64,000 nt of DNA, taken from a virus. Position numbers and translations under genes: made by a program. The notes below the pieces were generated by a model. That model was not told the DNA's origin, ran no database searches, and saw only the letters and a program-made list of their open reading frames with translations. The stretch spans positions 7,708-71,707 of the IMG/VR virus record IMGVR_UViG_3300021961_007606. One strand, written 5' to 3'. Below are positions 3,248 to 43,110 of the stretch, one piece after another; the first letter of the stretch is position 1; each line of letters starts with the position of its first letter.

Positions 3248-3249
3248 GT

Positions 3250-30021: not shown

Positions 30022-32244
30022 TTATAAATGCCCCGCACCAAAATCACTTGCAATATTTGGTTCAGCAATCAGCCCAGTTGCAATCTTTACAGTATTTTCC
30101 ATGTGATGTTTTACAATCCTTGACACTTCCTCAGCAATTTCTTCCTTTGCATTTACAACAAACTCATCATGGATTTGTAACATGATATATGCATCCAATC
30201 CTCTTTCTTTAAACTCTTTGTGTATTGCTATGGCAGATCTATTCATAATAGAAGCTGCTAGTGACTGTATTTGAAAGTTTTTAGAGTTGTTCAAACCATT
30301 CTTATACTCCATCCGCAGTTGCATTAGTTTATTTGTTTGCTCTACACTTTTGCACATTCCTTTCATCATTTTAAAAGCTTGTGGATGTAGCAAGTTATCT
30401 TCAAACTTTTCATAGATAGCTTTTACACGATCCAAGTGACGAATCCTACCAGTCTTATTTTTAATAAAACCAAATGCTTGCACTCTAAGGTGGGTATCAC
30501 TCATCCATTTTGCTAACTCAGGGAACCCTTCAAGATACCCATCAATTAGCTTTTGAGCTTCTCTAATATCAATATCAAGACTCTTACTGATCTGCCAAGC
30601 ACCAGCACCATATGGAATCGCAAGTGCAATTCCTTTTGCCCTCTGCCTCAGTTCCGGTCTCATTGTTTTAACAAAGTTAGGATCTTTCTTTTTAGCTGAA
30701 AGTCCTTTAAGTTTAAAAGCTTGTATCGCTACCCTGCTATACAAATCCTCATTTTCTAAGAATACATTAATTAGGTTTGGGTCATTACTAACAGAAGCAA
30801 ACACTCGAGGTTCTAGAGAAGATTGGTCACATATAATAAGCTTACGACCATTCTCGGCTTTTAGGAAACTGCGCAAAATGTTGTTGTATTTTAAAACTAA
30901 ATCACTCACCTCACCCTGTTCCAATACACGAGGCATTTGCTGACAATCAGAGCTAAACCTACCACTAGTTGTTCCATGTTGGCGGAAGTACCAATAATAC
31001 CTACCATTCTCATTACCATCGACAAAGCGGTCAATATAGGCACTATTGATTTTAATAAGTTTGTTATAATCCCTCAGCTTTGCAGCCCAATCATGCTTCT
31101 TTCCTAAATGCTCTATCATGTCATCATCAAACTGATCTGTACCCTTACGAGTTTGACTGAGAGGCTTGATCTTCATGTATTTAAAAACAATATCCGATAG
31201 TTGCTTCTTGCTACTGATGTTTATGTAGTTTCCTTCACTCTCTTTCCATAATTCCAAACTAACTTTATACTTTAACTCCTCAGTTAAATCATTCACATCT
31301 CCACTAATCAAAAAGAGGGAATTAGGGTCATGTTGTTTAAGTCGTTCTGCATACTTTCCTCTTTTCTTAGGAGGAAAGTTTTGTATAGCTTTTACCATCA
31401 CCCACTCCTTTACGGCTGGAATTGTTAACATGCTGGCTATGATGTCCTGCTCTAGTTGTATCAGCTCAGCATTGATGTTTTTCTTAGTTTCAAGAATAAG
31501 ATTCATGTCTAACTCTGTACCAACTTCTTCCATCTGAATGGTTACAGTTTTGTAAAGTGGCATGACTTCGTCAACAAAAAAGAAGTCCCACAACTCCTGC
31601 TCTTTTAGTATTGGAAGATAGTGAGTCATTACACGAAGAGTTAAATCAGTATCCGCTGCAGCATATTGACCTAACAACTGCATGTCTGCTTTAAAGATCT
31701 CATAGTTTTCTTTGCTGACACTACCACCATTCCTTTTAATGTTCTCTTTCATAAGGACCTGCTCTTCATTAGCTTCTTTCTCAGCATTGATACCAAGCTC
31801 AGCTTGCAACTCAATTGCAATATCTTTTAAACCAAAAGGACCATCCTCTTTAAGAGTGTGACGTAGTAACATTGTATCACAATACAAGTCCTCTCTAAGA
31901 TCTATACCATAAAAGTTTTTAGTAAATCGGATATCAAAAGATCCGTTATGCATTATCAGCTTCTTGCCTTTGAGCATTCCGATAAGCTGTTTAGCAATAT
32001 CGTCACAGCTCTTGCTGCCTATAAAAGAATCTACCAAAGCTTGTTGTTCGGGATTCCAAATACGAGTGGGAAAGTAGTAACCCTCATTCAAGTTTGCTGA
32101 AACTGAAAAACCAATGATCATCCCAGTTCTTGGATTGATGCTTGTGGTTTCAATATCATACGCGATTATGTTACCATTCTTAATGTAATTAGCCAGCTCT
32201 ACGACCCCAGCCTGGTCCGTTATGATCTTATAACTTTTTTCCAT
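30022..32244 (-). CDS. polA: DNA polymerase family A with 3'-5' exonuclease
   Basis: YDIETT, HNGSFD, YAAADT, SGRFSS, DQSSLEPR, RQRAK...YG, QIHDE; start moved to MEKSYK. Confidence 0.95.
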   Translation of the reverse strand: MEKSYKIITDQAGVVELANYIKNGNIIAYDIETTSINPRTGMIIGFSVSANLNEGYYFPTRIWNPEQQALVDSFIGSKSCDDIAKQLIGMLKGKKLIMHNGSFDIRFTKNFYGIDLREDLYCDTMLLRHTLKEDGPFGLKDIAIELQAELGINAEKEANEEQVLMKENIKRNGGSVSKENYEIFKADMQLLGQYAAADTDLTLRVMTHYLPILKEQELWDFFFVDEVMPLYKTVTIQMEEVGTELDMNLILETKKNINAELIQLEQDIIASMLTIPAVKEWVMVKAIQNFPPKKRGKYAERLKQHDPNSLFLISGDVNDLTEELKYKVSLELWKESEGNYINISSKKQLSDIVFKYMKIKPLSQTRKGTDQFDDDMIEHLGKKHDWAAKLRDYNKLIKINSAYIDRFVDGNENGRYYWYFRQHGTTSGRFSSDCQQMPRVLEQGEVSDLVLKYNNILRSFLKAENGRKLIICDQSSLEPRVFASVSNDPNLINVFLENEDLYSRVAIQAFKLKGLSAKKKDPNFVKTMRPELRQRAKGIALAIPYGAGAWQISKSLDIDIREAQKLIDGYLEGFPELAKWMSDTHLRVQAFGFIKNKTGRIRHLDRVKAIYEKFEDNLLHPQAFKMMKGMCKSVEQTNKLMQLRMEYKNGLNNSKNFQIQSLAASIMNRSAIAIHKEFKERGLDAYIMLQIHDEFVVNAKEEIAEEVSRIVKHHMENTVKIATGLIAEPNIASDFGAGHL

Positions 32245-32250
32245 ACTATA

Positions 32251-32279
32251 ACAATACAAAATAAAAAAGAAAAAGCCAA
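32251..32279 (-). promoter_or_regulatory. host-sigma-type promoter TTGGCT-N17-TATTGT
   Basis: Upstream of polA; -35 lies in the terminator stem. Confidence 0.5.
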
Positions 32280-32300
32280 CTTTTTTAGGAGTTGGCTTTT
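32271..32300 (-). terminator. intrinsic terminator
   Basis: AAAAGCCAACT...AGTTGGCTTTT inverted repeat with A/T tracts. Confidence 0.75.
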
Positions 32301-32319
32301 AATGTATGCTATTGTTAAT

Positions 32320-32685
32320 TTAATTTCCTACAATGTAAACATCATATCCAGTAAACTTGCTAGCCAAAGGCTCTAAAGCATCTTCGACATTATTTTTAGT
32401 TTCTTCTAAAAGATCCTGATATACTGGTCCATTTGGACGAAATTCAAACTCACAAACACTGTCAGTTACTACGTAATTGATTAGTTTACAGTCGTTTTGT
32501 TCTATAGTTTGTATTACCTCAGCCCATAAAGATGCGTTGTTGCTTTCAGCTTTATTCCAAGAAAAGTAGATAGCTGCTACAAGATTGTTGTTTTTATGTT
32601 TAGCTTGAAAAGCAGGAGCTTTTGCTTCCGTTAATACTTTTTTAATCTCTTCGCGGATTAGCTTTCTAAGTTCTGTTGCTTTCAT
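32320..32685 (-). CDS. putative head-internal protein with KxIxEEI leader
   Basis: MKATELRKLIREEIKKVLTE; TATTTATA at 32702-32709. Confidence 0.6.
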   Translation of the reverse strand: MKATELRKLIREEIKKVLTEAKAPAFQAKHKNNNLVAAIYFSWNKAESNNASLWAEVIQTIEQNDCKLINYVVTDSVCEFEFRPNGPVYQDLLEETKNNVEDALEPLASKFTGYDVYIVGN

Positions 32686-32717
32686 TATTATTTTTATTTC
32701 TTATAAATAGTCTAACG

Positions 32718-33512
32718 TCATTTAAAAGAACCTTTTCTGCAACTCTTTTTCAACATCTCAATGTTAGATTCTACCAACTTCATATCCACATCTCTCATAT
32801 CAAAAGTTTCTAAAAAATTATGTGGAGTTGGTATTCTTGTTTCAGAATCTTTAGTAAAATCAATACCATGTGCTGCAGCAAGTACGGGATACACACTATC
32901 AGTTGATCTCATAGCTGGGTGATCGTAGTAACTGAACTCAGTTGGTGATCCCTGTCCTAAGCAATGGATAGGCTTGAGTAGCATGTTTCTTTCTTTCAAG
33001 TAATCATAAGCCAAGTGCCTTGCTTCCTTAATACCTTGATCATTTGTCATGTTTAAGAAAGCGTTAGGAACTGCAATCTTAGAGAATCCAATGGTACTGA
33101 TCCAGTCTTGCTTTAGTCCCCACTCATATGCTTCCAACCAAGCTGTTTGGTCAATCCCTTGTGGACAAAAGAATATATCAGTACTTTCTAATAAACCTTC
33201 TGCTTCCATACGATCACGAAACTTGATTGCATTAGCAATTGTAGCATCTTTATCAAACAACACATCCGGTGCAATTACTTCACTTGGTGCTAAATCCTTT
33301 ACTACCTCAATAAGTACATCTTCTGTAACTAAAGCTCTTTCAGCTGCACTATTGTCTAATGTAATCCATCTATCTACATCTTCATCAATCAAATTATATA
33401 TAAATTTTCTGTAGTGAGGATACTGTACCCACAAATGTGCAAGTACAAAGATTCTATCTCCAAGCTTCATTGGCTCGAGATTGCTTACTGGTGATATAAC
33501 GTAAAAATCCAT
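32718..33512 (-). CDS. dpdA: TGT/DpdA-like TIM-barrel transglycosylase (7-deazaguanine insertion)
   Basis: LDNS, APDV, PQG, HCLG, RSTDS correspond to TGT-family catalytic motifs; clustered with folE/queD/queE. Confidence 0.65.
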   Translation of the reverse strand: MDFYVISPVSNLEPMKLGDRIFVLAHLWVQYPHYRKFIYNLIDEDVDRWITLDNSAAERALVTEDVLIEVVKDLAPSEVIAPDVLFDKDATIANAIKFRDRMEAEGLLESTDIFFCPQGIDQTAWLEAYEWGLKQDWISTIGFSKIAVPNAFLNMTNDQGIKEARHLAYDYLKERNMLLKPIHCLGQGSPTEFSYYDHPAMRSTDSVYPVLAAAHGIDFTKDSETRIPTPHNFLETFDMRDVDMKLVESNIEMLKKSCRKGSFK

Positions 33513-33577
33513 TTAGTTTTTTATATAAGTGTATGTGAAAGGAATGTTTCCAAAGGTTGTACTAGATGTCCAATAAT

Positions 33578-34237
33578 TCATTGTTTTAGGTTGCTTAATT
33601 GTTTGTGTTCATATATTTGTTTTATCATACGAAAAAAATCTTCTTCAGGCAAATCCATTTTCATTTTATTTGCGTTTTTGTGTATCCACTGTATATTGTC
33701 GGCTGTGTACCCTTTTGCTGAGTTAATGCGGTCAAGTGATGCTGTCTGCTTATTGAAGTTGTTGCTGTTTGTCAGTGTTAGGTCTAATCCTGAAAATACA
33801 CACTTGCCTATCTGCTTTTGATACTGTGACCACATATCTTCTATTGTAATCATAAACGGTATACCTCTTCGAATAGCTGCGTTTTTAATCTGAAGCCAGT
33901 ATGTTTGGTGTACTCTGCCACACGACTTGCCTTCTGATATCTTTTTATAACTGCAAGCGGTGCAGCGTTTAGATCTCGGTGACTTTGCTGTCGCTGATGA
34001 AAGTTCACTAGTGTTACCACAACTACACCTAACAGATATAAGATTGTGACGATTAAACGTATGACCTTCTACAACCCAATCACCTATGTAGGTGCCTATA
34101 GGAAATTCTTTTTTTAAGCTTTGTGCACCTAAGCAGCGGTGACATAAACCATCCCAAGTTGGATCTTTAATTTTATCAGGCTTGCATATACGCTCTTTAC
34201 CACAACAGGTACAAGCTCGAATATAAGTTTTATTCAT
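33578..34237 (-). CDS. free-standing HNH-type homing endonuclease
   Basis: CSCG, C..SG, SLDRINSAKGYTADNIQWIH...N.MK; inserted between folE and the dpdA-like gene. Confidence 0.75.
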   Translation of the reverse strand: MNKTYIRACTCCGKERICKPDKIKDPTWDGLCHRCLGAQSLKKEFPIGTYIGDWVVEGHTFNRHNLISVRCSCGNTSELSSATAKSPRSKRCTACSYKKISEGKSCGRVHQTYWLQIKNAAIRRGIPFMITIEDMWSQYQKQIGKCVFSGLDLTLTNSNNFNKQTASLDRINSAKGYTADNIQWIHKNANKMKMDLPEEDFFRMIKQIYEHKQLSNLKQ

Positions 34238-34241
34238 AATT

Positions 34242-34296
34242 ACTATTTATTATAAATAGTATAACGAACTGTTTTATTATACAAATTCGTTATACT
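34242..34296 (-). promoter_or_regulatory. palindromic TATTTATA site plus 11 bp inverted repeat upstream of the HNH gene
   Basis: ACTATTTAT-T-ATAAATAGT (34242-34260); AGTATAACGAA...TTCGTTATACT (34258-34296). Confidence 0.55.
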
Positions 34297-34313
34297 TTTT
34301 ATAATAAAATAAA

Positions 34314-34964
34314 TTACATTCTACTTTGGTCGATGAGAGCAAAAAATTCATGCCTAGTGCCAATTTCATTAGTCCAGAAGTACCCTGACATTTGTGATGT
34401 CTTCATAATACTATCTTGCTTGATACCTCTACATTTTACACAATTGTGTTGGCTTTCTACTACCACTGCCACTCCTCGATTACCAATGCAAAGCTTATCA
34501 ATGTGATCATGAATTTGCTTTGTTAAACTTTCTTGAATGTTTGGTCTACGTGAATAAAAATCTACAATACGGTTCAACTTACTTAAACCAATAACCATAT
34601 CAGTTTTTTCTTTACCAGCTATGTAAGCAACATGGGCCACTCCATGGAATGTTAAGTTATGATGAGCACAAAGACTCATTACTGGAATACGTGTTTGACA
34701 AATTATACCAGTGTAACCTTCATCATTTGGAAATGCGGTAATCTCAGGCTCTTCACTCAAGGAACCCTTAATAAGGTCGTGTACCCATGCTTTTGCTACT
34801 CGCTTAGGTGTGTTAGCACTATGTGGATCTTGTGTCCAATCAAAGCCTAACGCATTTAAAAACTTTCCATAATACTCAGCAGCTTGTTCAATCATCTGAG
34901 CTTTTTCTTCCTCCGTACGAGGTATGTTGCCATTGGCTTTTGTCAATAACTTGATTTCTTTCAT
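34314..34964 (-). CDS. folE: GTP cyclohydrolase I
   Basis: TPKRVAK, SLCAHHN, GLSKLNRIVDFYSRRP.IQE, HNCVKCRG. Confidence 0.95.
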   Translation of the reverse strand: MKEIKLLTKANGNIPRTEEEKAQMIEQAAEYYGKFLNALGFDWTQDPHSANTPKRVAKAWVHDLIKGSLSEEPEITAFPNDEGYTGIICQTRIPVMSLCAHHNLTFHGVAHVAYIAGKEKTDMVIGLSKLNRIVDFYSRRPNIQESLTKQIHDHIDKLCIGNRGVAVVVESQHNCVKCRGIKQDSIMKTSQMSGYFWTNEIGTRHEFFALIDQSRM

Positions 34965-34968
34965 ATGT

Positions 34969-35436
34969 TTAGTTGTTTACAGTAATATACAAATCTTTTA
35001 GCTTATCTTGCAACTCTTTTAATCCTAAACTTTCATCACGCAGATCTGCTTCTTCAAAGGTGATGTCATCTTTAGAAATTGCTCGGTCATGAAATCTATA
35101 CTTGCGAACATCGTCAGGAGTCTCTAACCAAACAAGGTCTAAGTTCTCAATACCATATTCAGCAACTAATCCCATTACAATGGTATATTGTCTAATACCA
35201 TCAATCACAACTTTATTGTATTTGTTGATTTCTTGACAAAGTTCATGACAAATATCTTGATCCATGTGAGCTGTGTTTTGCAACTCACTACGAGAAGCTT
35301 TGCCCGATACTCGCTTTACAATATCAGATACTGTAATTCTTTTTGCTTTTGTGATGTAGCTCAATGCGTTTGCATATGTGCTTTTTCCACTACATATTTT
35401 TCCAAATAGTAGTACTATTCTTTTTGTTTGAATCAT
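34969..35436 (-). CDS. P-loop nucleotide (NMP-type) kinase
   Basis: GKICSGKST, VSDIVK, VIDGIR, DVRKYR lid. Confidence 0.7.
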   Translation of the reverse strand: MIQTKRIVLLFGKICSGKSTYANALSYITKAKRITVSDIVKRVSGKASRSELQNTAHMDQDICHELCQEINKYNKVVIDGIRQYTIVMGLVAEYGIENLDLVWLETPDDVRKYRFHDRAISKDDITFEEADLRDESLGLKELQDKLKDLYITVNN

Positions 35437-35774
35437 AACGTAACTATACCAAAAAATTCACCATCTTCCGACACTGAACATCTGCAAAGATTAAATTCCT
35501 TTAGCAGCTCCTCCGCAATCATTTCACAAGACCATCCGGTAAAGTTACAGCACTTGTATTTAGCGTCATACCACTTTTGACCAATGTAATTTTTAATCTT
35601 ATGCTTAAACTCAATAAACTCAATGTCACGATCTCCATGAGAAACTTCTGCTCTGCAAAAAAATTGAAATGTGTGTCTGTGTAGATACTTTAAGTATTCT
35701 ACTTCCTCAATGTTGCAGTTAGGCCAACAATGCAATCCCTCGATGTCTATCTTTACTTCTATGTACTTTTTCAT
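35433..35774 (-). CDS. QueD-like T-fold protein (DpdL-like, predicted CDG decarboxylase)
   Basis: EGLHCWP...YL...HRH.F...V.H.DRDIEF...SCEMIA...VSEDGE. Confidence 0.65.
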   Translation of the reverse strand: MKKYIEVKIDIEGLHCWPNCNIEEVEYLKYLHRHTFQFFCRAEVSHGDRDIEFIEFKHKIKNYIGQKWYDAKYKCCNFTGWSCEMIAEELLKEFNLCRCSVSEDGEFFGIVTL

Positions 35775-36256
35775 TATTTAAGATCCTTATTTTTTTGCCA
35801 CTGACCATTATACAGCTCAGCTGATGTGTTTTCAAACAAAATGATTTGAGCTACTCTTGCTCCTTTTTCAATTACCATTTCTTTTGTTGCAATCAATACA
35901 GCTCCCATTTCATCTACCTCAAAACCCGGATCATAAACTCCGCTTGTAATAATTCCACCACAACGTAAAATACTTGAACGATGTCTAATAAAAGCTGTGT
36001 GATTGCTATCCAGCTTACAGCCTTGTTCAAAGGTGAGTGAGTATGTTCCTGGTTCTAGTTTAAAAATAATCTTTCCAGTTGGAGAGGTGAATGGTGTTAT
36101 TGGGGTGTATGGAGTTACATCGGTTGCATTTGCCATTACAGCACCACCATTAATCTTTTTTACTTCTTTTAAGGTTAAGTCATAACCTACTTGAGCCTTT
36201 GCTCCTTTTCCATGTGTAGATAAAAAAGTTTCTACTTGATTTGCATTTAAAAGCAT
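35774..36256 (-). CDS. trimeric dUTPase/dCTP-deaminase-fold protein
   Basis: GYDLT, RSS..R, YDPGF, RVAQ, YNGQWQ. Confidence 0.75.
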   Translation of the reverse strand: MLLNANQVETFLSTHGKGAKAQVGYDLTLKEVKKINGGAVMANATDVTPYTPITPFTSPTGKIIFKLEPGTYSLTFEQGCKLDSNHTAFIRHRSSILRCGGIITSGVYDPGFEVDEMGAVLIATKEMVIEKGARVAQIILFENTSAELYNGQWQKNKDLK

Positions 36257-36378
36257 ATGTTTTTAAGATATTTTAAGAGTTCAACAAAACCTGTATAGTT
36301 CGCGACCAAAATGTCTACTAAGTCCAAATGACCAATACTATCAGGACAAATTCCTATTATGTGATATAATTCATGCAT
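36247..36378 (-). CDS. small hypothetical protein (43 aa), not in ORF track
   Basis: Hand-translated MHELYHIIGICPDSIGHLDLVDILVANY...; fills the gap exactly. Confidence 0.5.
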   Translation of the reverse strand: MHELYHIIGICPDSIGHLDLVDILVANYTGFVELLKYLKNICF

Positions 36379-36379
36379 A

Positions 36380-37156
36380 TTACACTCCGCGTTTAGTATC
36401 AAAAGCAATGATATGATCTCTACCAGTCATATTGTATCCTCTTTCAGCACACATATCAAATACTAATGGATACATCTTGATTAACTCATCTCTTGTGTCT
36501 CCAGCTGGCATGATATAAGTCTTGCTCATTGGAATATCATGAAGCTTTCTAAACTCTTCTAATTCCAAAAGAGTATCTACTGTACCATCCCAAACTGGTT
36601 TGTAATGGTAGTCTGTATGATACTTTAAAGTTTGACTAATGGCCTCATGATTGAGTCTAAGCTTGTTATGTTGCTTAATCATTTTATCATCTACAATATC
36701 TCCTTGAGGAGTACTAACTCCAGCTTTAGGAACACTATTGCTAAACTTTGGACTAAGTGAAATTAAACCAATAGGATAATCTGTTTCAATAAAATGACTA
36801 CCTTCAGTTTCAATTGTAATAAGAATGCCCCTTTCATGAGCAAAATGAGTAAGCTCATTTACCAAGTTAGGATGCATTGTTGGTGATCCTCCAGTCAACA
36901 TCATTTCACTGATGTGTGGATTTTCATCATAGATTTTAATAATATCGTTAAAAGTAAATGTACCCTTTTCAGGATGTATACTTGTATACCAACTATCACA
37001 CCATCCACCTTCACCAAAGTAACATCTATGAGTACATCCAGTTGTTCGTACAGCTATAGTTGGTCTTCCAAATCGACTACCTTCACTTTGCACACAACGA
37101 TACAACTCTACAATAGGTAAAACTTTATTGTAATCTACTATTCTTCCTGGTTTCAT
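36380..37156 (-). CDS. queE: 7-carboxy-7-deazaguanine synthase (radical SAM)
   Basis: VQSEG, RTTGCTHRC-x7-CDS, LTGGSP, IETEG, LSPK; start moved to MKPGRIV. Confidence 0.9.
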   Translation of the reverse strand: MKPGRIVDYNKVLPIVELYRCVQSEGSRFGRPTIAVRTTGCTHRCYFGEGGWCDSWYTSIHPEKGTFTFNDIIKIYDENPHISEMMLTGGSPTMHPNLVNELTHFAHERGILITIETEGSHFIETDYPIGLISLSPKFSNSVPKAGVSTPQGDIVDDKMIKQHNKLRLNHEAISQTLKYHTDYHYKPVWDGTVDTLLELEEFRKLHDIPMSKTYIMPAGDTRDELIKMYPLVFDMCAERGYNMTGRDHIIAFDTKRGV

Positions 37157-37157
37157 A

Positions 37158-37391
37158 TTATACTGGGTTTTGTTTAAAGTATTCATCTAAAAAGCTTTTA
37201 GGATACCTCATGATTTTTCCTACGTAGGTTTTTGTTGTTACCTCGTGAGTGGTCATTTCAACTCCTTTTAGCATTGCTGCTTGACACACGGCTCTTCCTA
37301 GTTCAGAACCTGCTGCTTGTCCTAAATACTCAAACAAAGACATCATAATTACATCGTTTGTTGAGGTTGATGTGTAATAACTATTTGACAT
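37158..37391 (-). CDS. hypothetical protein
   Basis: MSLFEYLGQAAGSELG... core; start uncertain. Confidence 0.6.
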   Translation of the reverse strand: MSNSYYTSTSTNDVIMMSLFEYLGQAAGSELGRAVCQAAMLKGVEMTTHEVTTKTYVGKIMRYPKSFLDEYFKQNPV

Positions 37392-37392
37392 A

Positions 37393-37860
37393 TTATACTG
37401 GTTTGTATATTGCGCTGTTGCGTTTATTTTCAAAAAATTCTACTTGTACTACAGACACTCGTCCGTTTGTTTCTTCTTGTATGAATGTATTTACTTTATC
37501 AAATACAAACTTAGCAAACTTTTCTGCACCAACCGGACCTTCAAGTATACGAAGTTGTAGTACACCTTTTCTATCCAACTCCTTGAACGATTCCAACTCA
37601 GGATCATCAGGTGCTATTACGGTTGTATGATCAAACATATAATCAAACCAAGTTTTTGGATTCATACCATCTATAGTTCCTTTAGCTCGCTTCATGCCTC
37701 CAAAGTCCCATACCCAATTACGATGATCCAACTCACCTTCAAAGGTTAAACGAATCTCCACGTCATATCCGTGAAGATATTTACAATGCGTGCCTTCTGC
37801 AGCCCACTGACGGAATACTGTACTGAAACCGTCAAATAATTTTGTTGATTGATACTTCAT
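37393..37860 (-). CDS. queD: 6-carboxy-5,6,7,8-tetrahydropterin synthase
   Basis: HCKYLHGY, WVWDFG, FDHT, AEKFA, E...NSA. Confidence 0.9.
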   Translation of the reverse strand: MKYQSTKLFDGFSTVFRQWAAEGTHCKYLHGYDVEIRLTFEGELDHRNWVWDFGGMKRAKGTIDGMNPKTWFDYMFDHTTVIAPDDPELESFKELDRKGVLQLRILEGPVGAEKFAKFVFDKVNTFIQEETNGRVSVVQVEFFENKRNSAIYKPV

Positions 37861-37864
37861 ATAC

Positions 37865-38020
37865 TTATACTAATTCTTCAACTATACCAATTACTTCAGA
37901 CATTACCAACAAACTTACAGCAACGTGTAGATTTACTAATAAAGTTAAGTAACCAAGGATTCGGATAGCAGATTTAAGAAAGCTTATCTGCTGATGTCTT
38001 TTTGCGTTTGGGTGTTCCAT
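37865..38020 (-). CDS. small membrane protein (51 aa), not in ORF track
   Basis: Hand-translated MEHPNAKRHQQISFLKSAIRILGYLTLLVNLHVAVSLLVMSEVIGIVEELV. Confidence 0.6.
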   Translation of the reverse strand: MEHPNAKRHQQISFLKSAIRILGYLTLLVNLHVAVSLLVMSEVIGIVEELV

Positions 38021-38231
38021 ATTTTAATTCTTTATTTTTAAAGATAAACAAATCTATTGGATAAAACAACAGTGCTCCAATAAAATTGCTGAGTACTAGT
38101 GCTGGGAGAGTTGTTAGATGTAAAATGTTGTAACATAACTCTAAACATGGCCATAGTATAATAAAACTAATCTGCCATTTGAAGTGGTATATTCCTATCC
38201 TCTTCCAATTCCAATTTTTGTAACCTTTCAT
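37974..38231 (-). CDS. two-TM membrane protein (GtrA-like size)
   Basis: KWQISFIILWP...LSNFIGALLFYPIDLFIF; start moved to ATG 38231, downstream of the promoter. Confidence 0.6.
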   Translation of the reverse strand: MKGYKNWNWKRIGIYHFKWQISFIILWPCLELCYNILHLTTLPALVLSNFIGALLFYPIDLFIFKNKELKYGTPKRKKTSADKLS

Positions 38232-38255
38232 GATTTTATAATATACGTTAATGTA

Positions 38256-38292
38256 ACTATACAAAAAAAGGCTTACGTTTGCAAGCCTTTTT
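38256..38292 (-). promoter_or_regulatory. promoter TTGCAA-N17-TATAGT for the que/dpd operon, overlapping a terminator hairpin
   Basis: AAAAAGGCTT-ACGTTTGC-AAGCCTTTTT stem contains the -35 element. Confidence 0.6.
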
Positions 38293-38301
38293 GTAATTTG
38301 T

Positions 38302-40092
38302 TTAAAGCTTTTTAAGCTCTTGAACTTCAATCCGAATTTCGGATCCACTAAATCGAAACACTAACCTTGTAGCATACTTCTTATCACCCATGGTTGTTGT
38401 GTAGGCTAGTAAAAAACCAGATTGTCCTACTGAATCGACTAGTCGTATTTTTGAAGTCTTCGTATCAATATCTATCTTTACTTTTGAGTCAAAGAAATCA
38501 GCGTGTGCATTATTAAGGCTTCGAGCATTACCAATAGCTTTCCAAAAGCTTGGAGAAATGCCAGCTTGTGCAATTGCAAATGCAGTTAATGCAACAAATG
38601 GATTTGATACTTCTTGAATCTTTTTATATGCTGGAGATATCTTAGCATTTTTATCTACCCAGCGATCCATAATAATTGAAGCTAGTTCGTATGCTGCTTG
38701 TTTCTTAGATAGGACAGATACTGGCTCTTCGTTTTCTTTTTGAATAGCTTTTGCAAATTGAGCACTACTTTCAGCCGACACTTCAATTTTATATTTTTTG
38801 AGATCTTTTAAAAACTCTTCCCTACTTTTTATGAAAGAACTCTCTACTTGCTTTACAGAATCTTCTCCTCCAACTTGCTTTTTGATTTTTGCAACAGCTT
38901 TTTGTAAGTCGTTAAAAATAGCTTTGTTTGCTTTATAAAAGCCCTTCTCATCTTTAACAAACTTAATATCACTAGTCTTGCGTGTAGGTAATCCTGCAGC
39001 TTGGAGTATAGTGTTGATAGAGCCGTGTATTTTATCATCCTTAGAAATGGCGTTAATAAAGCTCTGTGGTCTTTTTGCCTTTCCTATAAGATAATCTTCA
39101 AATCGTGAAATCTTTGCAGAAAGTTTTGCTAGGTTTTTGTTTTCTGAAGTTCCATATTTTTCATTGGGGTCAATGTTGGCCTGGAATGTATTAGAAAATA
39201 CTGTCTGTGCAAAAGTTGTTGCCTTTCCAGCTTGTGCTTTTTCTTCTTTTAAAGAAATCGCAACAATACCATTATTTTCTAAAAACTGAGCATTTAGACT
39301 ATCTTTACCGATGTTTAACGTTTCTGCTGCTAAAGCTTTTTTATCAGCTCCAGAGCTTACAACAAGATACACATCTCCAGGACACCAATTATCTGGAAGA
39401 AGGTTTATTTTAAATTCACTTTTTATTAAACTGGAAGCCAACGCTCGTATGCCTTCAAAAGTTTGATCTCGGATTATTCTTCCTTGAGATGATATTTCTG
39501 TGTGAATGACCTGAGCTGCTGAAGCGGCGTTTGTTAAGGTATCAAGCTCTTGCTTTGACGATAATACATATAATATGTAAGCATCCAAATTAAGAGGCAT
39601 AGACTTTCCAACTCCATAAAATTTTAAATTACTCTTATATACAGCTTTTAGTTTAGCTCCAAATCCTACCAATAGTTTTTTATCTATAGGTGCTTTTTTA
39701 TCGGAGGCTTGAGCATGTAGTGTTTGAAAACTCTTTGCGAGTGTGGAGTTCTTGAAAAGATCATAGAATAGGCACACTAAGCCTTCTTTTAAAGAAGTAT
39801 CGTTTGTTCCTGTATTTGGTCTTGCAATTTCTGCTATCGCTAAAGACTCTACTAAACCCAATCCTCTCTTTTGCAAAATCTCATTAAGAATGCTGATTTC
39901 GCTAGCTTCACTAAAAACTCCATCCACCATAGTGGGATAACCTTTTGGTAGTCTATAAGACCACTCTTCTACAATCTCAGTAAAGTCAGCTAATACTTCT
40001 GCTGAAGCTTCCTGCACTTGTTGAGGAACACTCTCTTGAGGTCCTTCTAAAATTGCGTTTAAATCTATTTCCTTAGAAATATCGTTCTTCAT
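38302..40092 (-). CDS. large hypothetical protein with restriction-endonuclease-like motif
   Basis: N-terminal EWSYRLPKGYP; KE...WCPGDVYL...IVAISLK resembles a PD-(D/E)xK variant. Confidence 0.5.
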   Translation of the reverse strand: MKNDISKEIDLNAILEGPQESVPQQVQEASAEVLADFTEIVEEWSYRLPKGYPTMVDGVFSEASEISILNEILQKRGLGLVESLAIAEIARPNTGTNDTSLKEGLVCLFYDLFKNSTLAKSFQTLHAQASDKKAPIDKKLLVGFGAKLKAVYKSNLKFYGVGKSMPLNLDAYILYVLSSKQELDTLTNAASAAQVIHTEISSQGRIIRDQTFEGIRALASSLIKSEFKINLLPDNWCPGDVYLVVSSGADKKALAAETLNIGKDSLNAQFLENNGIVAISLKEEKAQAGKATTFAQTVFSNTFQANIDPNEKYGTSENKNLAKLSAKISRFEDYLIGKAKRPQSFINAISKDDKIHGSINTILQAAGLPTRKTSDIKFVKDEKGFYKANKAIFNDLQKAVAKIKKQVGGEDSVKQVESSFIKSREEFLKDLKKYKIEVSAESSAQFAKAIQKENEEPVSVLSKKQAAYELASIIMDRWVDKNAKISPAYKKIQEVSNPFVALTAFAIAQAGISPSFWKAIGNARSLNNAHADFFDSKVKIDIDTKTSKIRLVDSVGQSGFLLAYTTTMGDKKYATRLVFRFSGSEIRIEVQELKKL

Positions 40093-40618
40093 AATGTAGG
40101 AGATCCAATTTACTGTTTACGTCTACTAATTGAGCTGCATTAAGCTTATCGGACATTTCTGCGATAGATTCAGTTTGTATATCTACAAATCCTTGCAAAA
40201 AATTAAAGGTCATTAAATGTTTACTGAAGTTCTGTGATGCCCAGTTCATGTATTTTGTACCAAGTTGGTATTCAATAGCATAAGCTTTATTTACAACATC
40301 AATTAAGCTTTTAAACTCTCCTGAGAATTTTACAGAAGGAAGTTGTGGTGTACAATTCCAATCTACTAAATACTTTTGTAATTTTTCTGCATGCTCTAGT
40401 TCAGCGTTTGCTTCTGCTGCAAAAAATGCAGCTGCTTTAAGATAAGCAACTCCTTGACACCAGTTAGCTGCTCCACGATAAAAATAATGAGCTGTATACT
40501 CTTCTGCCAAAGCGCTATTAAGGTCTGCAATAATATCTTCTGTTAAAGTCTTTGGTAACAATACGCTTGATTGTTCTGCTACAACATTAGTGACTGTTGA
40601 ATTAGGTAATTGTATCAT
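40073..40618 (-). CDS. ferritin
   Basis: EYTAHYFY, E..HAEKL..YL, E, FLQ.F...Q.E ferroxidase residues. Confidence 0.85.
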   Translation of the reverse strand: MIQLPNSTVTNVVAEQSSVLLPKTLTEDIIADLNSALAEEYTAHYFYRGAANWCQGVAYLKAAAFFAAEANAELEHAEKLQKYLVDWNCTPQLPSVKFSGEFKSLIDVVNKAYAIEYQLGTKYMNWASQNFSKHLMTFNFLQGFVDIQTESIAEMSDKLNAAQLVDVNSKLDLLHYEERYF

Positions 40619-40645: not shown

Positions 40646-41071
40646 TTAGTTTCCGGAACTCCCAAATCCACCATCACCACGTTCGGTAGTTGATAGGTTT
40701 TCCATTTCAACTAATAAAACTTCAGGGTGTGGCATTATAATCATTTGACCAATCCTATCACCCACTTCATACTTTTTGGATGGAATACCAGCTAGTTTAT
40801 TAAAAGTAAATTGAACTTCTCCTCTATATCCAGAATCAATAACTCCAACACAATTGGATAAACTTAATTGATAGTTGCGTACTGAACTTCTTGGAAAGAT
40901 TAGTCCAACATAACCTAAAGGTATTTCAAAAGCTAAACCTGTCTTATAGGTAACTTGAAACCCCTCATCATTAATAATTTCTACAGCAGTTAAGTCTAAT
41001 CCAGCATCTCCTGGTTTAGCATACTTTGGTATAACTGCGTTTGGATGTAACTTTTTAACTCCTACTCTCAT
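40646..41071 (-). CDS. dut: dUTPase
   Basis: AGLDL, PRSS, GVIDSGYRGE, RIGQ, RGDGGFGSSG. Confidence 0.95.
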   Translation of the reverse strand: MRVGVKKLHPNAVIPKYAKPGDAGLDLTAVEIINDEGFQVTYKTGLAFEIPLGYVGLIFPRSSVRNYQLSLSNCVGVIDSGYRGEVQFTFNKLAGIPSKKYEVGDRIGQMIIMPHPEVLLVEMENLSTTERGDGGFGSSGN

Positions 41072-41250: not shown

Positions 41251-43110
41251 CTACTTTACTTCACATGCACCACCTGCACAAGCAGCTTGTTCTTTTAAAG
41301 CTGTATTGTCTTCCAACTCAATAACTTTAGATAAGTCAACAGTGTGTAGGTATTTCATCATTTCTTCATATTTTTCTTTTGTACAATCTTCAAAAGGAGC
41401 TTGTGTATAAGATCCTCCATCGTATGGTAATACTGAAAGTCCATTATAGTGTTCACGGTTTTCCCACATCCATTCACCAGCAATTTCCCATTCTTCTGCT
41501 TTAAGTGATACTGTAGCAGATACATTGTGAGTATTGTTACCGGTTCTATGTCCAGGTTTAACCCATTCCAAGTGTACTTTTTTAATACGATCCAATAACT
41601 GAAATGGTGATTCTGTACGCAAGATAGCTCCTTCTGGGGCTTTTTGAGGTATGGAAATAACTGCAGTATCGTGAGGACGGAAATACTCATCCTCTACAAG
41701 TTCAGGGTGATTAATAGCTAAGTATGAATATATTGCTTCATTCTTACCAACACGAATACGACGAATATAATAGTCATTGTGCCAAGCATGAATACCACTT
41801 GAAGTACCTAAAGTAAGAGAAGTAGTACCAGCAGGCTTAACTGTAGTTGTACGAGCAGATTTGTTAATACCAATTAGATTAGCTACACGTTCGTTTTCTT
41901 TTTTAACTACATTTGCAGCTTCTTTCATGTTATAGCCTAACACTACACCAGATCCAATACCAGTCATGGAAACTCCAATAAGAGCTTCTTTTTCAGTTGT
42001 ACGCTTCCATACATCACGAAGATAATGAAAGTCTGTATAACCAGCTTGCAATGTACCAATGAACGCAGCTGCTTTTACACGAGCATTCAAGTCTTCTTGT
42101 GATTCAATATCACTTACATTTACTTCACAAAGATTACAAAATTGGAATGGACGTAGTGCAATTTCACAACATGGATTAGTACCCCAGTCTTTATCGTTTG
42201 TTAAATAGATACCAGGCTCTCCAGCACCACTTAACTCAACACGCTTCCAAAGATCCATGAAGAATTCTTTAGTTACTTTGTGACGAAGTAATACTGCTGA
42301 GTTGTTTGCACGACCACGCTGTGGATTGTTTTCCCACCAAGCACCTGACTTACAAGCAATCATTTCTTCATCATCTGCACTAAACAAAGATATTAAAGCT
42401 GCACGACGTATACCACCAGCTAATACTGCATCAGCAACGTGACATACCATATCGTGTACTTCGATTGATGAAAGTTTATCACCATCTTCTTTTGAATCTA
42501 AAATACCTTGAACTTTTACTAAACACTCTTTAAGAGGTTGAGGTCCTGGAGCTTTACCACCTGAAGTGATTAAACGAGCACCTTTTGGACGTATATCTGA
42601 AAAATCAAACTCAATCTGAGAGCCACCAGTAAAGTAACTCTTAACAAGAGCTTTAACTGCATCTGCCCAACCCTCAATACTATCTGCAATTAAGAAACGC
42701 TTGTGACGTTTAGGGTTTGGCTTTCTAATCTCAGGCAAGCTTTCTACATGATGCTTTTGTACTGAGTAACCTACTCCTGTACCACCTAATAGTAAAAACA
42801 TTGTTTCACCAAAAGCACGTACATCATCAATAGGCAAATAAGCACAATTGTAAATACGATTAGGACTAATTTCAATAGGCTTTCCAGCAAACTGCATGGA
42901 CCTCATCGAAGGTAAAACCTTTTTGTCATACACCATCTTGTATACTTCTTCAATCTCTTCAACAAGATTAGGAAACTTTTTAAGATGCATGTTTTTGTTT
43001 CGTGTTACTAATTCTTCCCAAGTTTCGCGACGTTGAAGCTCTGGAATGTACTTTGCGTACTTCATAAAGACGGTGATCTCACTCAAGATCTCATTCGATA
43101 TTGTCATCAT
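41251..43110 (-). CDS. nrdJ: class II (B12-dependent) ribonucleotide reductase
   Basis: NCAY, GTGVG, RRAALI, TNPCCEI, CNL, VKPAGT, C-terminal CAGGAC; no small subunit adjacent. Confidence 0.9.
   Translation of the reverse strand: MMTISNEILSEITVFMKYAKYIPELQRRETWEELVTRNKNMHLKKFPNLVEEIEEVYKMVYDKKVLPSMRSMQFAGKPIEISPNRIYNCAYLPIDDVRAFGETMFLLLGGTGVGYSVQKHHVESLPEIRKPNPKRHKRFLIADSIEGWADAVKALVKSYFTGGSQIEFDFSDIRPKGARLITSGGKAPGPQPLKECLVKVQGILDSKEDGDKLSSIEVHDMVCHVADAVLAGGIRRAALISLFSADDEEMIACKSGAWWENNPQRGRANNSAVLLRHKVTKEFFMDLWKRVELSGAGEPGIYLTNDKDWGTNPCCEIALRPFQFCNLCEVNVSDIESQEDLNARVKAAAFIGTLQAGYTDFHYLRDVWKRTTEKEALIGVSMTGIGSGVVLGYNMKEAANVVKKENERVANLIGINKSARTTTVKPAGTTSLTLGTSSGIHAWHNDYYIRRIRVGKNEAIYSYLAINHPELVEDEYFRPHDTAVISIPQKAPEGAILRTESPFQLLDRIKKVHLEWVKPGHRTGNNTHNVSATVSLKAEEWEIAGEWMWENREHYNGLSVLPYDGGSYTQAPFEDCTKEKYEEMMKYLHTVDLSKVIELEDNTALKEQAACAGGACEVK

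What the first reader, a model, noticed from the sequence alone, without database searches (positions are those of the whole stretch)
34969..36256. Kinase and second dUTPase-fold enzyme inside the deazaguanine operon suggest pre-replicative guanine replacement
Seen: an NMP-type kinase and a dCTP-deaminase-fold protein flank the QueD-like gene. The latter appears to lack the deaminase catalytic Glu (GAVLIAT where Dcd has an LE-type motif), and a canonical dut already exists at 40646. The main polA is almost adjacent. Known: post-replicative DpdA exchange needs neither enzyme, whereas nucleotide-pool replacement systems (hmC, dZ phages) pair a kinase with a pyrophosphatase for the canonical dNTP. 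Inference: the TGT-like enzyme may act on dGMP, the kinase phosphorylates the analogue and the dUTPase-fold protein removes dGTP, allowing full substitution through the polymerase.
Basis: inference. Interest (0 to 1): 0.7.

Follow-up and report, generated by a model that had tools for sequence, protein, structure and literature searches.

The report
Kinase and dNTPase tied to DpdA3
A phage gene cluster for making 7-deazaguanine DNA also carries a small nucleotide kinase and a dUTPase-like nucleotide hydrolase that travel with, and are sometimes fused to, the base-swapping enzyme, which suggests that guanine is replaced in the nucleotide pool before replication rather than on finished DNA.

Summary
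Three tightly packed minus-strand genes encode:
- a Dcd/dUTPase-fold protein (35774-36256) that lacks the deaminase Glu;
- DpdL (35433-35774), the 'QueD-like' gene, a proposed 7-carboxy-7-deazaguanine decarboxylase;
- an NMP-kinase-like P-loop protein (34969-35436).

They sit among QueD, QueE, FolE, a DpdA3-type transglycosylase (32718-33512) and PolA. A canonical Dut lies at 40646-41071. The cluster is the phiST-type 7-deazaguanine (dDG) system published in 2023, where insertion was proposed to be post-replicative.

What I add is comparative:
- **Kinase next to DpdA3.** A kinase-like gene lies beside DpdA3 in 8 of 9 named-phage loci and 28 of 28 metagenomic loci. It comes from at least three kinase families.
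- **dNTP hydrolase in the cluster.** It has four different folds in different lineages: Dcd, MazG, PRA-PH and HD.
- **Fusions.** Kinase is fused to DpdL, to DpdA3 and to the HD domain in different lineages.
- **Reverse search.** All 80 loci that encode this Dcd-like clade carry deazaguanine synthesis genes.
- **Controls.** Six DpdA1/2 control loci have none of these partners.

This resembles the T4 hmC and S-2L Z nucleotide-pool pathways. I favour a pre-replicative route at about 55%. No substrate has been tested.

The parts
35774..36256 (-). Dcd/dUTPase-fold nucleotide pyrophosphatase candidate. It lacks the deaminase Glu (V120). Proposed role: dGTP to dGMP.
   Evidence: Pfam DCD 43.3 bits. 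NF002598 archaeal-type dUTPase 81.5 bits, below the cut-off of 130. Glu column aligned. Model and fold. 80 of 80 related loci lie in deazaguanine clusters.
35433..35774 (-). DpdL, a QueD paralogue proposed in the literature to decarboxylate 7-carboxy-7-deazaguanine
   Evidence: LKYLHRHTF motif against LxxxHRHxF (PMC10516641 section 16). tblastn to phiST gp040: 36% identity, E 3e-15. phrog_17812.
34969..35436 (-). NMP-kinase-like P-loop protein. Proposed role: phosphorylate the 7-deaza-dGMP analogue.
   Evidence: AAA_18 36.7 bits and AAA_33 30.4 bits. Invariant GxICSGK, G-R-Q, R114, R118 and K-D in 12 sequences. The profile hits the AdkA-like structures 3lw7 and 3h0k at E 4e-8. Fused to DpdL or to DpdA3 in other lineages.
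34314..34964 (-). FolE, GTP cyclohydrolase I
   Evidence: PF01227 149 bits
33578..34237 (-). HNH homing-endonuclease-like insert between FolE and DpdA3
   Evidence: phrog_3322, phrog_3118 and phrog_1035. Absent at this position in most relatives.
32718..33512 (-). DpdA3-type transglycosylase (TGT fold)
   Evidence: 38% identical to phiST gp042, E 2e-47. Model pLDDT 95.6. VIA Z 17.3 to TGT 7a3x and to DpdA 7ui4. D53, D83, H183 and D205 invariant in 45 sequences.
36380..37186 (-). QueE, radical SAM 7-carboxy-7-deazaguanine synthase
   Evidence: phrog_2076 E 5e-48. TIGR03365 56 bits, below cut-off.
37393..37860 (-). QueD (6-carboxytetrahydropterin synthase)
   Evidence: PF01242 50.7 bits
30022..32259 (-). 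Family A DNA polymerase with 3'-5' exonuclease
   Evidence: PF00476 204.7 bits and PF01612 52.6 bits
40646..41071 (-). Canonical trimeric dUTPase
   Evidence: PF00692 80.7 bits. TIGR00576 108.1 bits, above the cut-off of 102.55.

Best explanation
The three genes belong to a nucleotide-pool pathway that makes 7-deaza-dGTP, so that the phage polymerase writes 7-deazaguanine in place of guanine.

Proposed steps, all inferred unless marked:
1. FolE, QueD and QueE make 7-carboxy-7-deazaguanine from GTP. The family assignments are shown.
2. DpdL removes the carboxyl group. This role was proposed in the literature.
3. The Dcd-fold enzyme, which cannot deaminate, hydrolyses dGTP to dGMP. That removes the competitor and supplies the substrate.
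4. DpdA3 swaps guanine for the deazapurine on the free deoxynucleotide, using TGT-type Asp chemistry.
5. The small kinase phosphorylates the product to the diphosphate.
6. A host NDP kinase completes the triphosphate.
7. PolA incorporates it.

Because the kinase is fused to DpdL in some phages and to DpdA3 in others, DpdA3 may insert the carboxy form and DpdL may then act on the nucleotide.
For: 1. **Kinase beside DpdA3.**
 - In named phages, a kinase-like ORF lies within the DpdA3 stretch in 8 of 9 loci. These are phiST, MA9V-3, D479, Ahp1, IBB35, CP220, immuto_2-6A and BSTP12. The exception is RHph_I1_18.
 - The kinases belong to AAA_18/33, DNMK PF21448 and AAA_28.
 - In 28 IMG/VR DpdA3 loci, 28 have the kinase (23 separate, 5 fused). 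26 have a Dcd-like or MazG gene, and the other 2 are cut at the contig end.

2. **The hydrolase changes fold while keeping its place.** It is Dcd-like in the window, MA9V-3, D479, Ahp1 and RHph. It is MazG in phiST, PRA-PH in immuto and HD in CP220 gp055.

3. **Fusions.**
 - DpdL::kinase in L026-L030.
 - DpdA3::kinase in P0154, E 4.5e-17.
 - TMK-like kinase::DpdA3 in P0230.
 - HD::AAA_33 in CP220 gp055.

4. **A dedicated kinase copy.** Aeromonas phage Ahp1 keeps a canonical DNMK (167.8 bits) elsewhere and a divergent copy next to DpdA3.

5. **Reverse search from the Dcd-like protein**.
 - 80 of 80 loci carry QueD, QueE or FolE.
 - 49 have DpdA3 within 7 kb.
 - 23 have an HGPRT-like phosphoribosyltransferase within 1.5 kb.
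 - In 4 of 4 records tested without a nearby DpdA3, DpdA3 is elsewhere on the contig.

6. **Controls.** 0 of 6 DpdA1/2 loci (9g, Quinobequin-P09, CA8, RHEph04, Rosebush, Mufasa8) have a kinase, hydrolase, PRTase or small Walker-A ORF within 5 kb. Two have a ParB-like DNA-binding partner instead.

7. **Not a deaminase, not the only Dut.** The Glu is absent, and a canonical Dut and a ThyA are present.

8. **Literature.**
 - DpdA3 phages show complete replacement, and DpdA3 with or without DpdL alone gave no modification in E. coli (PMC10516641 sections 15, 16, 21).
 - A modified-dGTP route had been proposed for Campylobacter phages (PMC6884629 discussion).
Against: - No substrate was tested, and base specificity cannot be read from the Dcd fold.
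- The closest solved and curated relatives of the 160-aa protein are dUTPases (9w59, E 4.6e-10; NF002598).
- DpdA3 keeps all the TGT/DpdA catalytic residues, and its discoverers regard it as a DNA enzyme.
- Its small size is not an argument. Phage DpdA1 proteins (about 277-385 aa, most about 300-317) are also compact, and whole-protein charge does not separate the groups.
- Of 80 Dcd-like loci, 20 show neither kinase nor PRTase in the fetched stretch.
- Many loci are close relatives, so the counts are not independent events.
- Bacteroides phages carry a 42%-identical Dcd-like gene with no DpdA3 found.
- This record is only about 42% complete.
Confidence: 0.55

Rival explanations
1. Published model. 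DpdA3 exchanges guanine for the deazapurine on replicated DNA. The kinase and the Dcd-fold enzyme are ordinary nucleotide-supply genes (a dNMP kinase and a second dUTPase or dCTPase) that merely sit among replication genes.
For: [quoted passage not shown] DpdA3 has the TGT/DpdA fold and catalytic residues. The Dcd-like protein's nearest named relatives are dUTPases. The genes lie in a replication and nucleotide-metabolism region with RNR, Dut and PolA.
Against: The kinase is fused to DpdL, to DpdA3 and to an HD domain. Ahp1 has a second, divergent DNMK at DpdA3 although a canonical one exists. The Dcd-like clade lies in deazaguanine clusters in 80 of 80 loci. None of 6 DpdA1/2 controls has such neighbours. 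A canonical Dut is already present. A hydrolase that removed dGTP would work against a route that first needs dG in DNA.
Confidence: 0.2
2. Mixed route. The deazapurine enters the pool through the nucleotide enzymes (in some relatives also through an HGPRT-like phosphoribosyltransferase and ribonucleotide reductase) and is incorporated at replication. DpdA3 works on DNA to convert the guanines that slipped in.
For: An HGPRT-like PRTase lies next to the Dcd-like gene in 23 of 80 loci. It co-exists with DpdA3 in 7 of these within 7 kb, and in 4 of 4 tested records at genome level. L026-L030 carry PRTase, Dcd-like, DpdL::kinase and DpdA3 together. A class II RNR lies in the window.
Against: No PRTase was found in this record, though the record is incomplete. 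The PRTase could equally recycle the released guanine. The fusions of DpdA3 with kinases suggest that DpdA3 itself handles a nucleotide.
Confidence: 0.13
3. The kinase and the hydrolase serve synthesis of the base, not of the deoxynucleotide. For example, there could be an ATP-dependent activation step for DpdL, or control of a triphosphate intermediate such as dihydroneopterin triphosphate.
For: A DpdL::kinase fusion occurs in five loci. DpdL alone with DpdA3 was inactive in E. coli (PMC10516641 section 16).
Against: Kinases also accompany DpdA3 in phages without DpdL (CP220 and immuto) and are fused to DpdA3 itself. The known route from GTP to 7-carboxy-7-deazaguanine needs no kinase (PMC10516641 introduction). 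The kinase families involved are dNMP- or NMP-kinase-like.
Confidence: 0.07

Closest known systems
Cellulophaga phage phiST 7-deazaguanine (dDG) system: FolE, QueD, QueE, DpdL, DpdA3 (PMC10516641)
   Same: Homologous DpdA3 (38%) and DpdL (36%). Same local order of hydrolase, DpdL, AAA_18 protein, then DpdA3, close to the polymerase gene. No QueC found.
   Different: The hydrolase here has the Dcd fold, whereas phiST has a MazG-like one. FolE and an HNH gene are inserted before DpdA3. The polymerase is family A, not PolIII alpha. The paper named the MazG gene but gave no role to the ATPase, and it reported no homologues of the ATPase in other deazaguanine phages.
T4 hydroxymethylcytosine pathway: gp56 dCTPase, gp42 dCMP hydroxymethylase, gp1 dNMP kinase (textbook knowledge, recalled)
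   Same: The same logic of three activities: hydrolase for the canonical dNTP, an enzyme that modifies the monophosphate, and a kinase that accepts the product. The result is complete replacement. Two DpdA3 phages use a gp1-family (DNMK) kinase.
   Different: The base is a purine. The modifying step would be a base exchange by a TGT-fold enzyme, not a methylene transfer. None of the activities has been shown.
Cyanophage S-2L 2-aminoadenine pathway: DatZ (HD dATPase), MazZ, PurZ (PMC8342488: search listing and abstract only)
   Same: Complete purine replacement through the pool, with an HD or MazG hydrolase. CP220 has an HD domain and phiST a MazG next to DpdA3.
   Different: Z is made by de novo-type synthesis on the nucleotide, not by base exchange.
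Bacterial DpdA/DpdB and phage DpdA1/DpdA2 (PMC10164549; PMC6884629)
   Same: TGT-fold enzymes with conserved Asp, Asp, His and Asp residues.
   Different: Those enzymes modify DNA partially (0.1-30% of G according to PMC10516641 section 21). They pair with ParB-like proteins or stand alone. They had no kinase or hydrolase neighbours in 6 of 6 loci examined.
Archaeal-type dUTPases of the dCTP deaminase family (NF002598; PDB 9w59, 8y1w, 2zdc)
   Same: Same fold, the RSS motif, the motif-III Asp, the C-terminal Y-G-Q lid, and no deaminase Glu.
   Different: The score is below the family cut-off (81.5 against 130). The genomic context is always deazaguanine synthesis. A canonical Dut co-exists in the same genome.

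Membership tests
dCTP deaminase (Dcd, TIGR02274) | Catalytic Glu (E138 of E. coli Dcd; the residue number is recalled, and PDB entry titles for E138A/E138D variants appear) | tested here: not met
   The Glu of TLELF in 4xjc aligns to V120. The column is V, I, L or M in 15 of 15 family members.
dCTP deaminase (Dcd, TIGR02274) | Score above the curated cut-off | tested here: not met
   26.3 bits against a cut-off of 92.8
dCTP deaminase / dUTPase superfamily fold | Jelly-roll fold with the RSS phosphate motif and the motif-III Asp | tested here: met
   Foldseek TM 0.65-0.75 to 4xjc, 2yzj, 9ln0 and 8y1w. R93-S94-S95 and D109 are invariant.
Archaeal-type dUTPase (NF002598) | Score above the curated cut-off; dUTP specificity | tested here: not met
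   81.5 bits against a cut-off of 130. Specificity cannot be tested with these tools.
Canonical trimeric Dut (TIGR00576), for the 160-aa protein | Score above the curated cut-off | tested here: not met
   15.8 bits against 102.55. The gene at 40646-41071 does pass, with 108.1 bits.
NMP/dNMP kinase | N-terminal Walker A, an NMP-site Arg and lid Arg residues | tested here: met
   GKICSGKST. R49, R82, R114 and R118 are invariant in 12 sequences. AAA_18 is above its cut-off. The nearest structures are AdkA-like. Assigning the Arg residues to the NMP site and the lid is inference.
NMP/dNMP kinase | Phosphorylates a (deoxy)nucleoside monophosphate | not testable with these tools
There is no close characterised relative.
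DpdL (PMC10516641) | LxxxHRHxF in place of the QueD motif CxxxHGH, and homology to phiST CGPG_00067 | tested here: met
   LKYLHRHTF. 36% identity to phiST gp040, E 3e-15.
DpdA3 (PMC10516641) | Homology to phiST CGPG_00065, TGT fold and conserved catalytic Asp residues | tested here: met
   38% identity, E 2e-47. Z 17.3 to TGT and to DpdA. D53, D83, H183 and D205 invariant, aligned to D72, H196 and D215 of DpdA1.
DpdA3 (PMC10516641) | Inserts a 7-deazaguanine into DNA (the claimed activity) | not testable with these tools
   The authors' own heterologous tests failed (sections 16 and 21).
Nucleotide-pool base-replacement system (T4 hmC or S-2L Z type) | Hydrolase for the canonical dNTP, an enzyme acting on the monophosphate and a kinase, all encoded together | tested here: inconclusive
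   Candidates for all three are present and co-inherited. Their substrates are unknown.
Nucleotide-pool base-replacement system (T4 hmC or S-2L Z type) | Complete replacement of the base in virion DNA | not tested
   Reported for phiST, CP220 and immuto_2-6A (PMC10516641 sections 15 and 21). There are no data for this uncultured phage.

The most novel reading that the evidence does not exclude
DpdA3 would be the first TGT-superfamily enzyme that exchanges the base on a free deoxynucleotide rather than on a nucleic acid. Together with a dedicated kinase and a dGTP hydrolase it would form a widespread pre-replicative pathway. Fully 7-deazaguanine-substituted phage genomes would then be written by the polymerase. 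[quoted passage not shown]
Probability: 0.5. Interest if true: 0.85.

Novelty: new variant of a known kind. Interest (0 to 1): 0.72.

Why it matters
How some phages replace every guanine is an open question. A transglycosylase that flips and swaps every G in both strands of finished DNA would be without precedent. Every other complete base replacement whose route has been worked out goes through the dNTP pool.

If the kinase and the hydrolase are the missing parts, three things follow:
- It explains why DpdA3 and DpdL failed in E. coli.
- It gives a short, testable gene set for making 7-deaza-dG DNA in vivo.
- It identifies a new reaction type for the TGT fold.

It also gives a simple genomic rule for predicting complete versus partial deazaguanine modification in uncultured phages. 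DpdA3 with a kinase and a hydrolase would point to complete modification. DpdA1/2, alone or with a ParB-like protein, would point to partial modification.

Tried and rejected
- **No close nucleotide match.** Megablast of 32000-40100 against phage records found nothing.
- **Alignment too diverse.** The search for related loci with the six-sequence DpdA3 alignment had no conserved stretch. It was repeated with three sequences.
- **Size argument dropped.** DpdA3 aligns over only 232 of 413 residues of bacterial DpdA. Phage DpdA1 proteins are also compact, and the profile alignment shows only about 40 fewer residues after the nucleophile.
- **Charge argument dropped.** DpdA3 has a median pI of 5.9 and a range of 4.9-9.6. 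The DpdA1/2 controls range from 5.4 to 9.0.
- **A DpdA-independent route through the PRTase alone is rejected.** All 4 records tested have DpdA3 elsewhere. A fifth record was not held.
- **Kinase searches that found nothing.** Longer, fused relatives of the window kinase by word search: none, which is weak evidence. The kinase against PDB by single sequence: no hit.
- **Base specificity** of the Dcd-like enzyme cannot be inferred from sequence or fold.
- **Not available.**
  - The Crippen et al. 2019 paper on Campylobacter phages is not held and is known here only through what other papers say of it.
  - The supplements of PMC10516641, which list homologues of the phiST ATPase and DpdA3 phages, could not be seen and may bear on the co-occurrence claim.
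- **Literature searches.** Searches for a printed link between deazaguanine and a pre-replicative or kinase route found none in the held library. Subscription journals are not covered.
Full report
**What is in the window.**

The window is bases 7708-71707 of a 71.7-kb linear IMG/VR virus record. CheckV estimates the record to be about 42% complete. Nearly all genes are on the minus strand and GC is about 35%.

Read in the direction of transcription, the region holds the following genes:

| Coordinates | Gene |
|---|---|
| 43178-44545 | DnaB-like helicase |
| 41251-43110 | Class II ribonucleotide reductase |
| 40646-41071 | Canonical Dut |
| 40073-40618 | Ferritin-like protein |
| 38302-40092, 37974-38348 | Two proteins without family matches |
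| 37393-37860 | QueD |
| 37158-37433 | 91-aa ORF |
| 36380-37186 | QueE |
| 35774-36256 | Dcd-fold protein |
| 35433-35774 | 113-aa protein (DpdL) |
| 34969-35436 | Kinase-like protein |
| 34314-34964 | FolE |
| 33578-34237 | HNH endonuclease |
| 32718-33512 | 264-aa protein (DpdA3) |
| 32320-32685 | 121-aa protein |
| 30022-32259 | PolA |

The three genes of the finding overlap or abut one another and FolE. This layout is what an operon with coupled translation looks like.

**The three genes.**

*The 160-aa Dcd-fold protein.*
- It matches Pfam DCD and dUTPase.
- Its best curated match is the archaeal-type dUTPase model NF002598, at 81.5 bits against a cut-off of 130. The dCTP deaminase model scores 26.3 against 92.8.
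- HMMER aligns the catalytic Glu of a solved Dcd-DUT (4xjc, TLELF) to V120.
- In an alignment of 15 family members this column is always hydrophobic, while the RSS motif, D109 and the C-terminal Y-G-Q are invariant.
- The model (pLDDT 92.8) superposes on Dcd, DCD-DUT and archaeal dUTPase structures.
- It is therefore a nucleotide pyrophosphatase candidate that cannot deaminate.

*The 113-aa protein.*
- It is not a plain QueD.
- It carries LKYLHRHTF, the LxxxHRHxF signature by which Cui, Hutinet and colleagues defined DpdL, their candidate 7-carboxy-7-deazaguanine decarboxylase (PMC10516641 section 16).
- It is 36% identical to phiST gp040.

*The 155-aa kinase-like protein.*
- It passes AAA_18 and AAA_33.
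- Twelve relatives share GxICSGK, a G-R-Q motif and Arg residues spaced as in NMP-kinase lids.
- Their profile finds only adenylate-kinase-related archaeal structures, at E 4e-8.

*The 264-aa DpdA3.*
- It is 38% identical to phiST gp042.
- Its model (pLDDT 95.6) matches TGT and bacterial DpdA at Z 17.3.
- D53, D83, H183 and D205 are invariant in 45 sequences. They align with the acid/base Asp, the base-reading Asp and His, and the nucleophile Asp described for DpdA (PMC10164549 passages; profile alignment).

No QueC, phosphoribosyltransferase or Pfam-type TGT was found in the record. The record is incomplete, so this is weak evidence. The cluster is a phiST-type 7-deazaguanine (dDG) system.

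**What is published.**

- PMC10516641 reports complete replacement of dG by dDG in phiST (section 15).
- It names DpdL and DpdA3, and it notes a dUTPase/MazG-like gene beside DpdL.
- It states that homologues of CGPG_00064 and CGPG_00066 are absent from other deazaguanine phages (section 16). By gene order, CGPG_00066 is the ATPase gp041.
- It reports that DpdA3 and DpdL could not be made to work in E. coli.
- Earlier, the same group had mentioned a modified-dGTP route 'as proposed for Campylobacter phages' (PMC6884629 discussion).
- The Campylobacter paper itself is not held.
- My searches of the held library found no paper that links deazaguanine to a kinase or a pre-replicative route.

**Comparative test: neighbours of DpdA3.**

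In named phages I examined nine DpdA3 loci. IBB35 and CP220 are one lineage. The neighbours are as follows.

| Phage | Arrangement |
|---|---|
| phiST | MazG, DpdL, AAA_18, DpdA3 |
| Chryseobacterium MA9V-3 | Dcd-like, HNH-DpdL, AAA_18, DpdA3 |
| Vibrio D479 and Aeromonas Ahp1 | DpdA3, DNMK-family kinase, Dcd-like |
| Campylobacter CP220 | HD-domain + AAA_33 fusion, DpdA3, AAA_28 kinase |
| Flavobacterium immuto_2-6A | PRTase, FolE, PRA-PH-type pyrophosphohydrolase, DpdA3, formyltransferase, AAA_28 kinase, QueF |
| Bacillus BSTP12 | 187-aa Walker-A protein, DpdA3-like, PolA |
| Rhizobium RHph_I1_18 | DpdL, then DpdA3 fused to a DUF3310-bearing tail, then Dcd-like |

- A uniform scan found a kinase-like ORF in 8 of the 9 loci.
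- In Ahp1 a canonical DNMK (167.8 bits) lies 170 kb away. The copy beside DpdA3 is a divergent second one.
- Among 28 IMG/VR loci found with DpdA3, all 28 have the AAA_18 kinase.
- 26 of the 28 have a Dcd-like or MazG gene. The two without are cut at the contig end. Most of these loci are close relatives of the window.

**Fusions.**

- In five loci (L026-L030; two look like the same virus) DpdL and the kinase are one ORF of 304-328 aa.
- Among the 150 best DpdA3 cluster representatives, P0154 is DpdA3 with a C-terminal AAA_18-type kinase. It scores E 4.5e-17 to my kinase profile.
- P0230 has an N-terminal thymidylate-kinase-like P-loop domain before DpdA3. The matches are below threshold, but three kinase families match, and the Walker A is GVDGVGKTS.
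- CP220 gp055 joins an HD phosphohydrolase domain to a kinase domain.
- Several DpdA3 homologues carry inteins or LAGLIDADG inserts.

**Reverse test: neighbours of the Dcd-like protein.**

I started from the Dcd-like protein and kept 80 IMG/VR loci out of 108. Many come from the same contigs as the first set.

| Feature found in the fetched stretch | Loci (of 80) |
|---|---|
| QueD, QueE or FolE | 80 |
| DpdA3 within 7 kb | 49 |
| Kinase by my profiles | 43 |
| HGPRT-like phosphoribosyltransferase, always within 1.5 kb | 23 |
| Kinase or PRTase | 60 |
| Neither kinase nor PRTase | 20 |

- The PRTase scores Pfam 75-79 bits and TIGR01203 up to 144 bits, just under the cut-off of 150.
- Seven of the 20 loci with neither partner have a 169-aa Walker-A ORF. 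One such ORF, in another stretch of the record behind one of these loci, passes AAA_28.
- In four records where DpdA3 was not within 7 kb, it lies elsewhere on the contig (4 of 4).
- Three of those four have an AAA_28 kinase-like ORF within about 3 kb of DpdA3.
- The one exception to the association is a group of Bacteroides phages. Their 42%-identical Dcd-like gene sits beside a divergent GMP-reductase-like gene. No DpdA3 was detected there. That neighbour still points to guanine nucleotides.

**Controls.**

Six loci with DpdA1/2-type enzymes served as controls: 9g, Quinobequin-P09, vB_VpS_CA8, RHEph04, Rosebush and Mufasa8. None has a kinase, hydrolase, PRTase or small N-terminal Walker-A ORF within 5 kb, either by annotation or by the same scan. 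Rosebush and Mufasa8 instead have a ParB-like protein next to DpdA. That is the kind of partner the bacterial DNA-level system uses (PMC10164549).

**Interpretation.**

- The kinase comes from several families and the nucleotide hydrolase from four different folds, yet both are kept next to DpdA3. The kinase is repeatedly fused to pathway enzymes.
- This pattern is what one expects if these activities are required parts of one pathway.
- The combination of three activities is the design of the T4 hydroxymethylcytosine pathway and, in part, of the S-2L 2-aminoadenine pathway (recalled knowledge). The three are a hydrolase for a canonical dNTP, an enzyme acting on the monophosphate and a kinase.
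dGTP is cut to dGMP, DpdA3 exchanges the base on the nucleotide, the kinase starts re-phosphorylation and the polymerase incorporates the analogue.
- 7-deaza-dGTP is a good polymerase substrate in routine PCR use (recalled).
- The fusions would join consecutive steps if DpdA3 inserts the carboxy base and DpdL decarboxylates the nucleotide. This refinement is speculative.
- The model would also explain why DpdA3 with DpdL gave nothing in E. coli.

**Limits.**

- None of the substrates is shown.
- The Dcd-like protein's nearest relatives are dUTPases.
- DpdA3 keeps everything a DNA transglycosylase needs. Neither size nor charge separates it from DNA-active phage DpdA1.
- A fifth of the Dcd-like loci show neither partner nearby.
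- Relatedness inflates the counts.
- I put the nucleotide-pool model at about 0.55, the published post-replicative model with unrelated neighbours at 0.2, a mixed route at 0.13 and a role in base synthesis at 0.07.

**Verdict.**

The gene cluster belongs to a known kind. The proposed mechanism would be a new variant of that kind and contradicts the current published view.

Noticed in passing
window 33578-34237: An HNH or endonuclease-VII-like gene sits between FolE and DpdA3. In most related contigs FolE abuts DpdA3 directly, and in others similar endonuclease genes sit at different places in the cluster. This looks like a mobile homing endonuclease.
   Followed up: partly
outside the window: G000:C1:1248-1850 and 3041-3556, minus strand: A thymidylate synthase (ThyA) matches in two pieces, covering profile positions 2-108 and 104-265, about 1.2 kb apart. 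It may be interrupted by an intron, intein or endonuclease.
   Followed up: no
L103:6434-6964, L107:6421-6936, L112:5769-6278, L026:4035-4553 and 19 further loci: An HGPRT-like phosphoribosyltransferase lies directly beside the Dcd-like gene in 23 of 80 related viral loci. It could load the deazapurine onto ribose phosphate, or it could recycle released guanine into GTP.
   Followed up: partly
L001 (Bacteroides phage SJC03) 7095-9483: A 42%-identical Dcd-like gene is flanked by a phosphatidylserine-decarboxylase-like gene and a divergent GMP-reductase-like gene. A canonical Dut is nearby and no DpdA3 was detected. This may be a different guanine-nucleotide conversion system.
   Followed up: partly
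proteins P0125, P0127, P0183, P0184 (DpdA3 homologues): DpdA3 genes carry LAGLIDADG endonuclease domains, and one carries an intein with an HNH domain.
   Followed up: no
window 38302-40092 and 37974-38348: A 596-aa protein and a 124-aa protein lie between the ferritin-like gene and QueD. Neither has a Pfam, PHROG or NCBIfam match. Relatives of the 596-aa protein occur in the same position in two related contigs.
   Followed up: no
window 26338-27969: A phage-encoded Cpn60/GroEL-type chaperonin (PF00118, 236.7 bits). ORFs beginning with a GroEL-like sequence also follow PolA in L103 and L107.
   Followed up: no
L037 (Rhizobium phage RHph_I1_18) 5001-6269: DpdA3 is fused to a 159-aa C-terminal tail that contains DUF3310. 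This is the one named DpdA3 phage without a recognisable kinase nearby, so the tail might stand in for one.
   Followed up: partly
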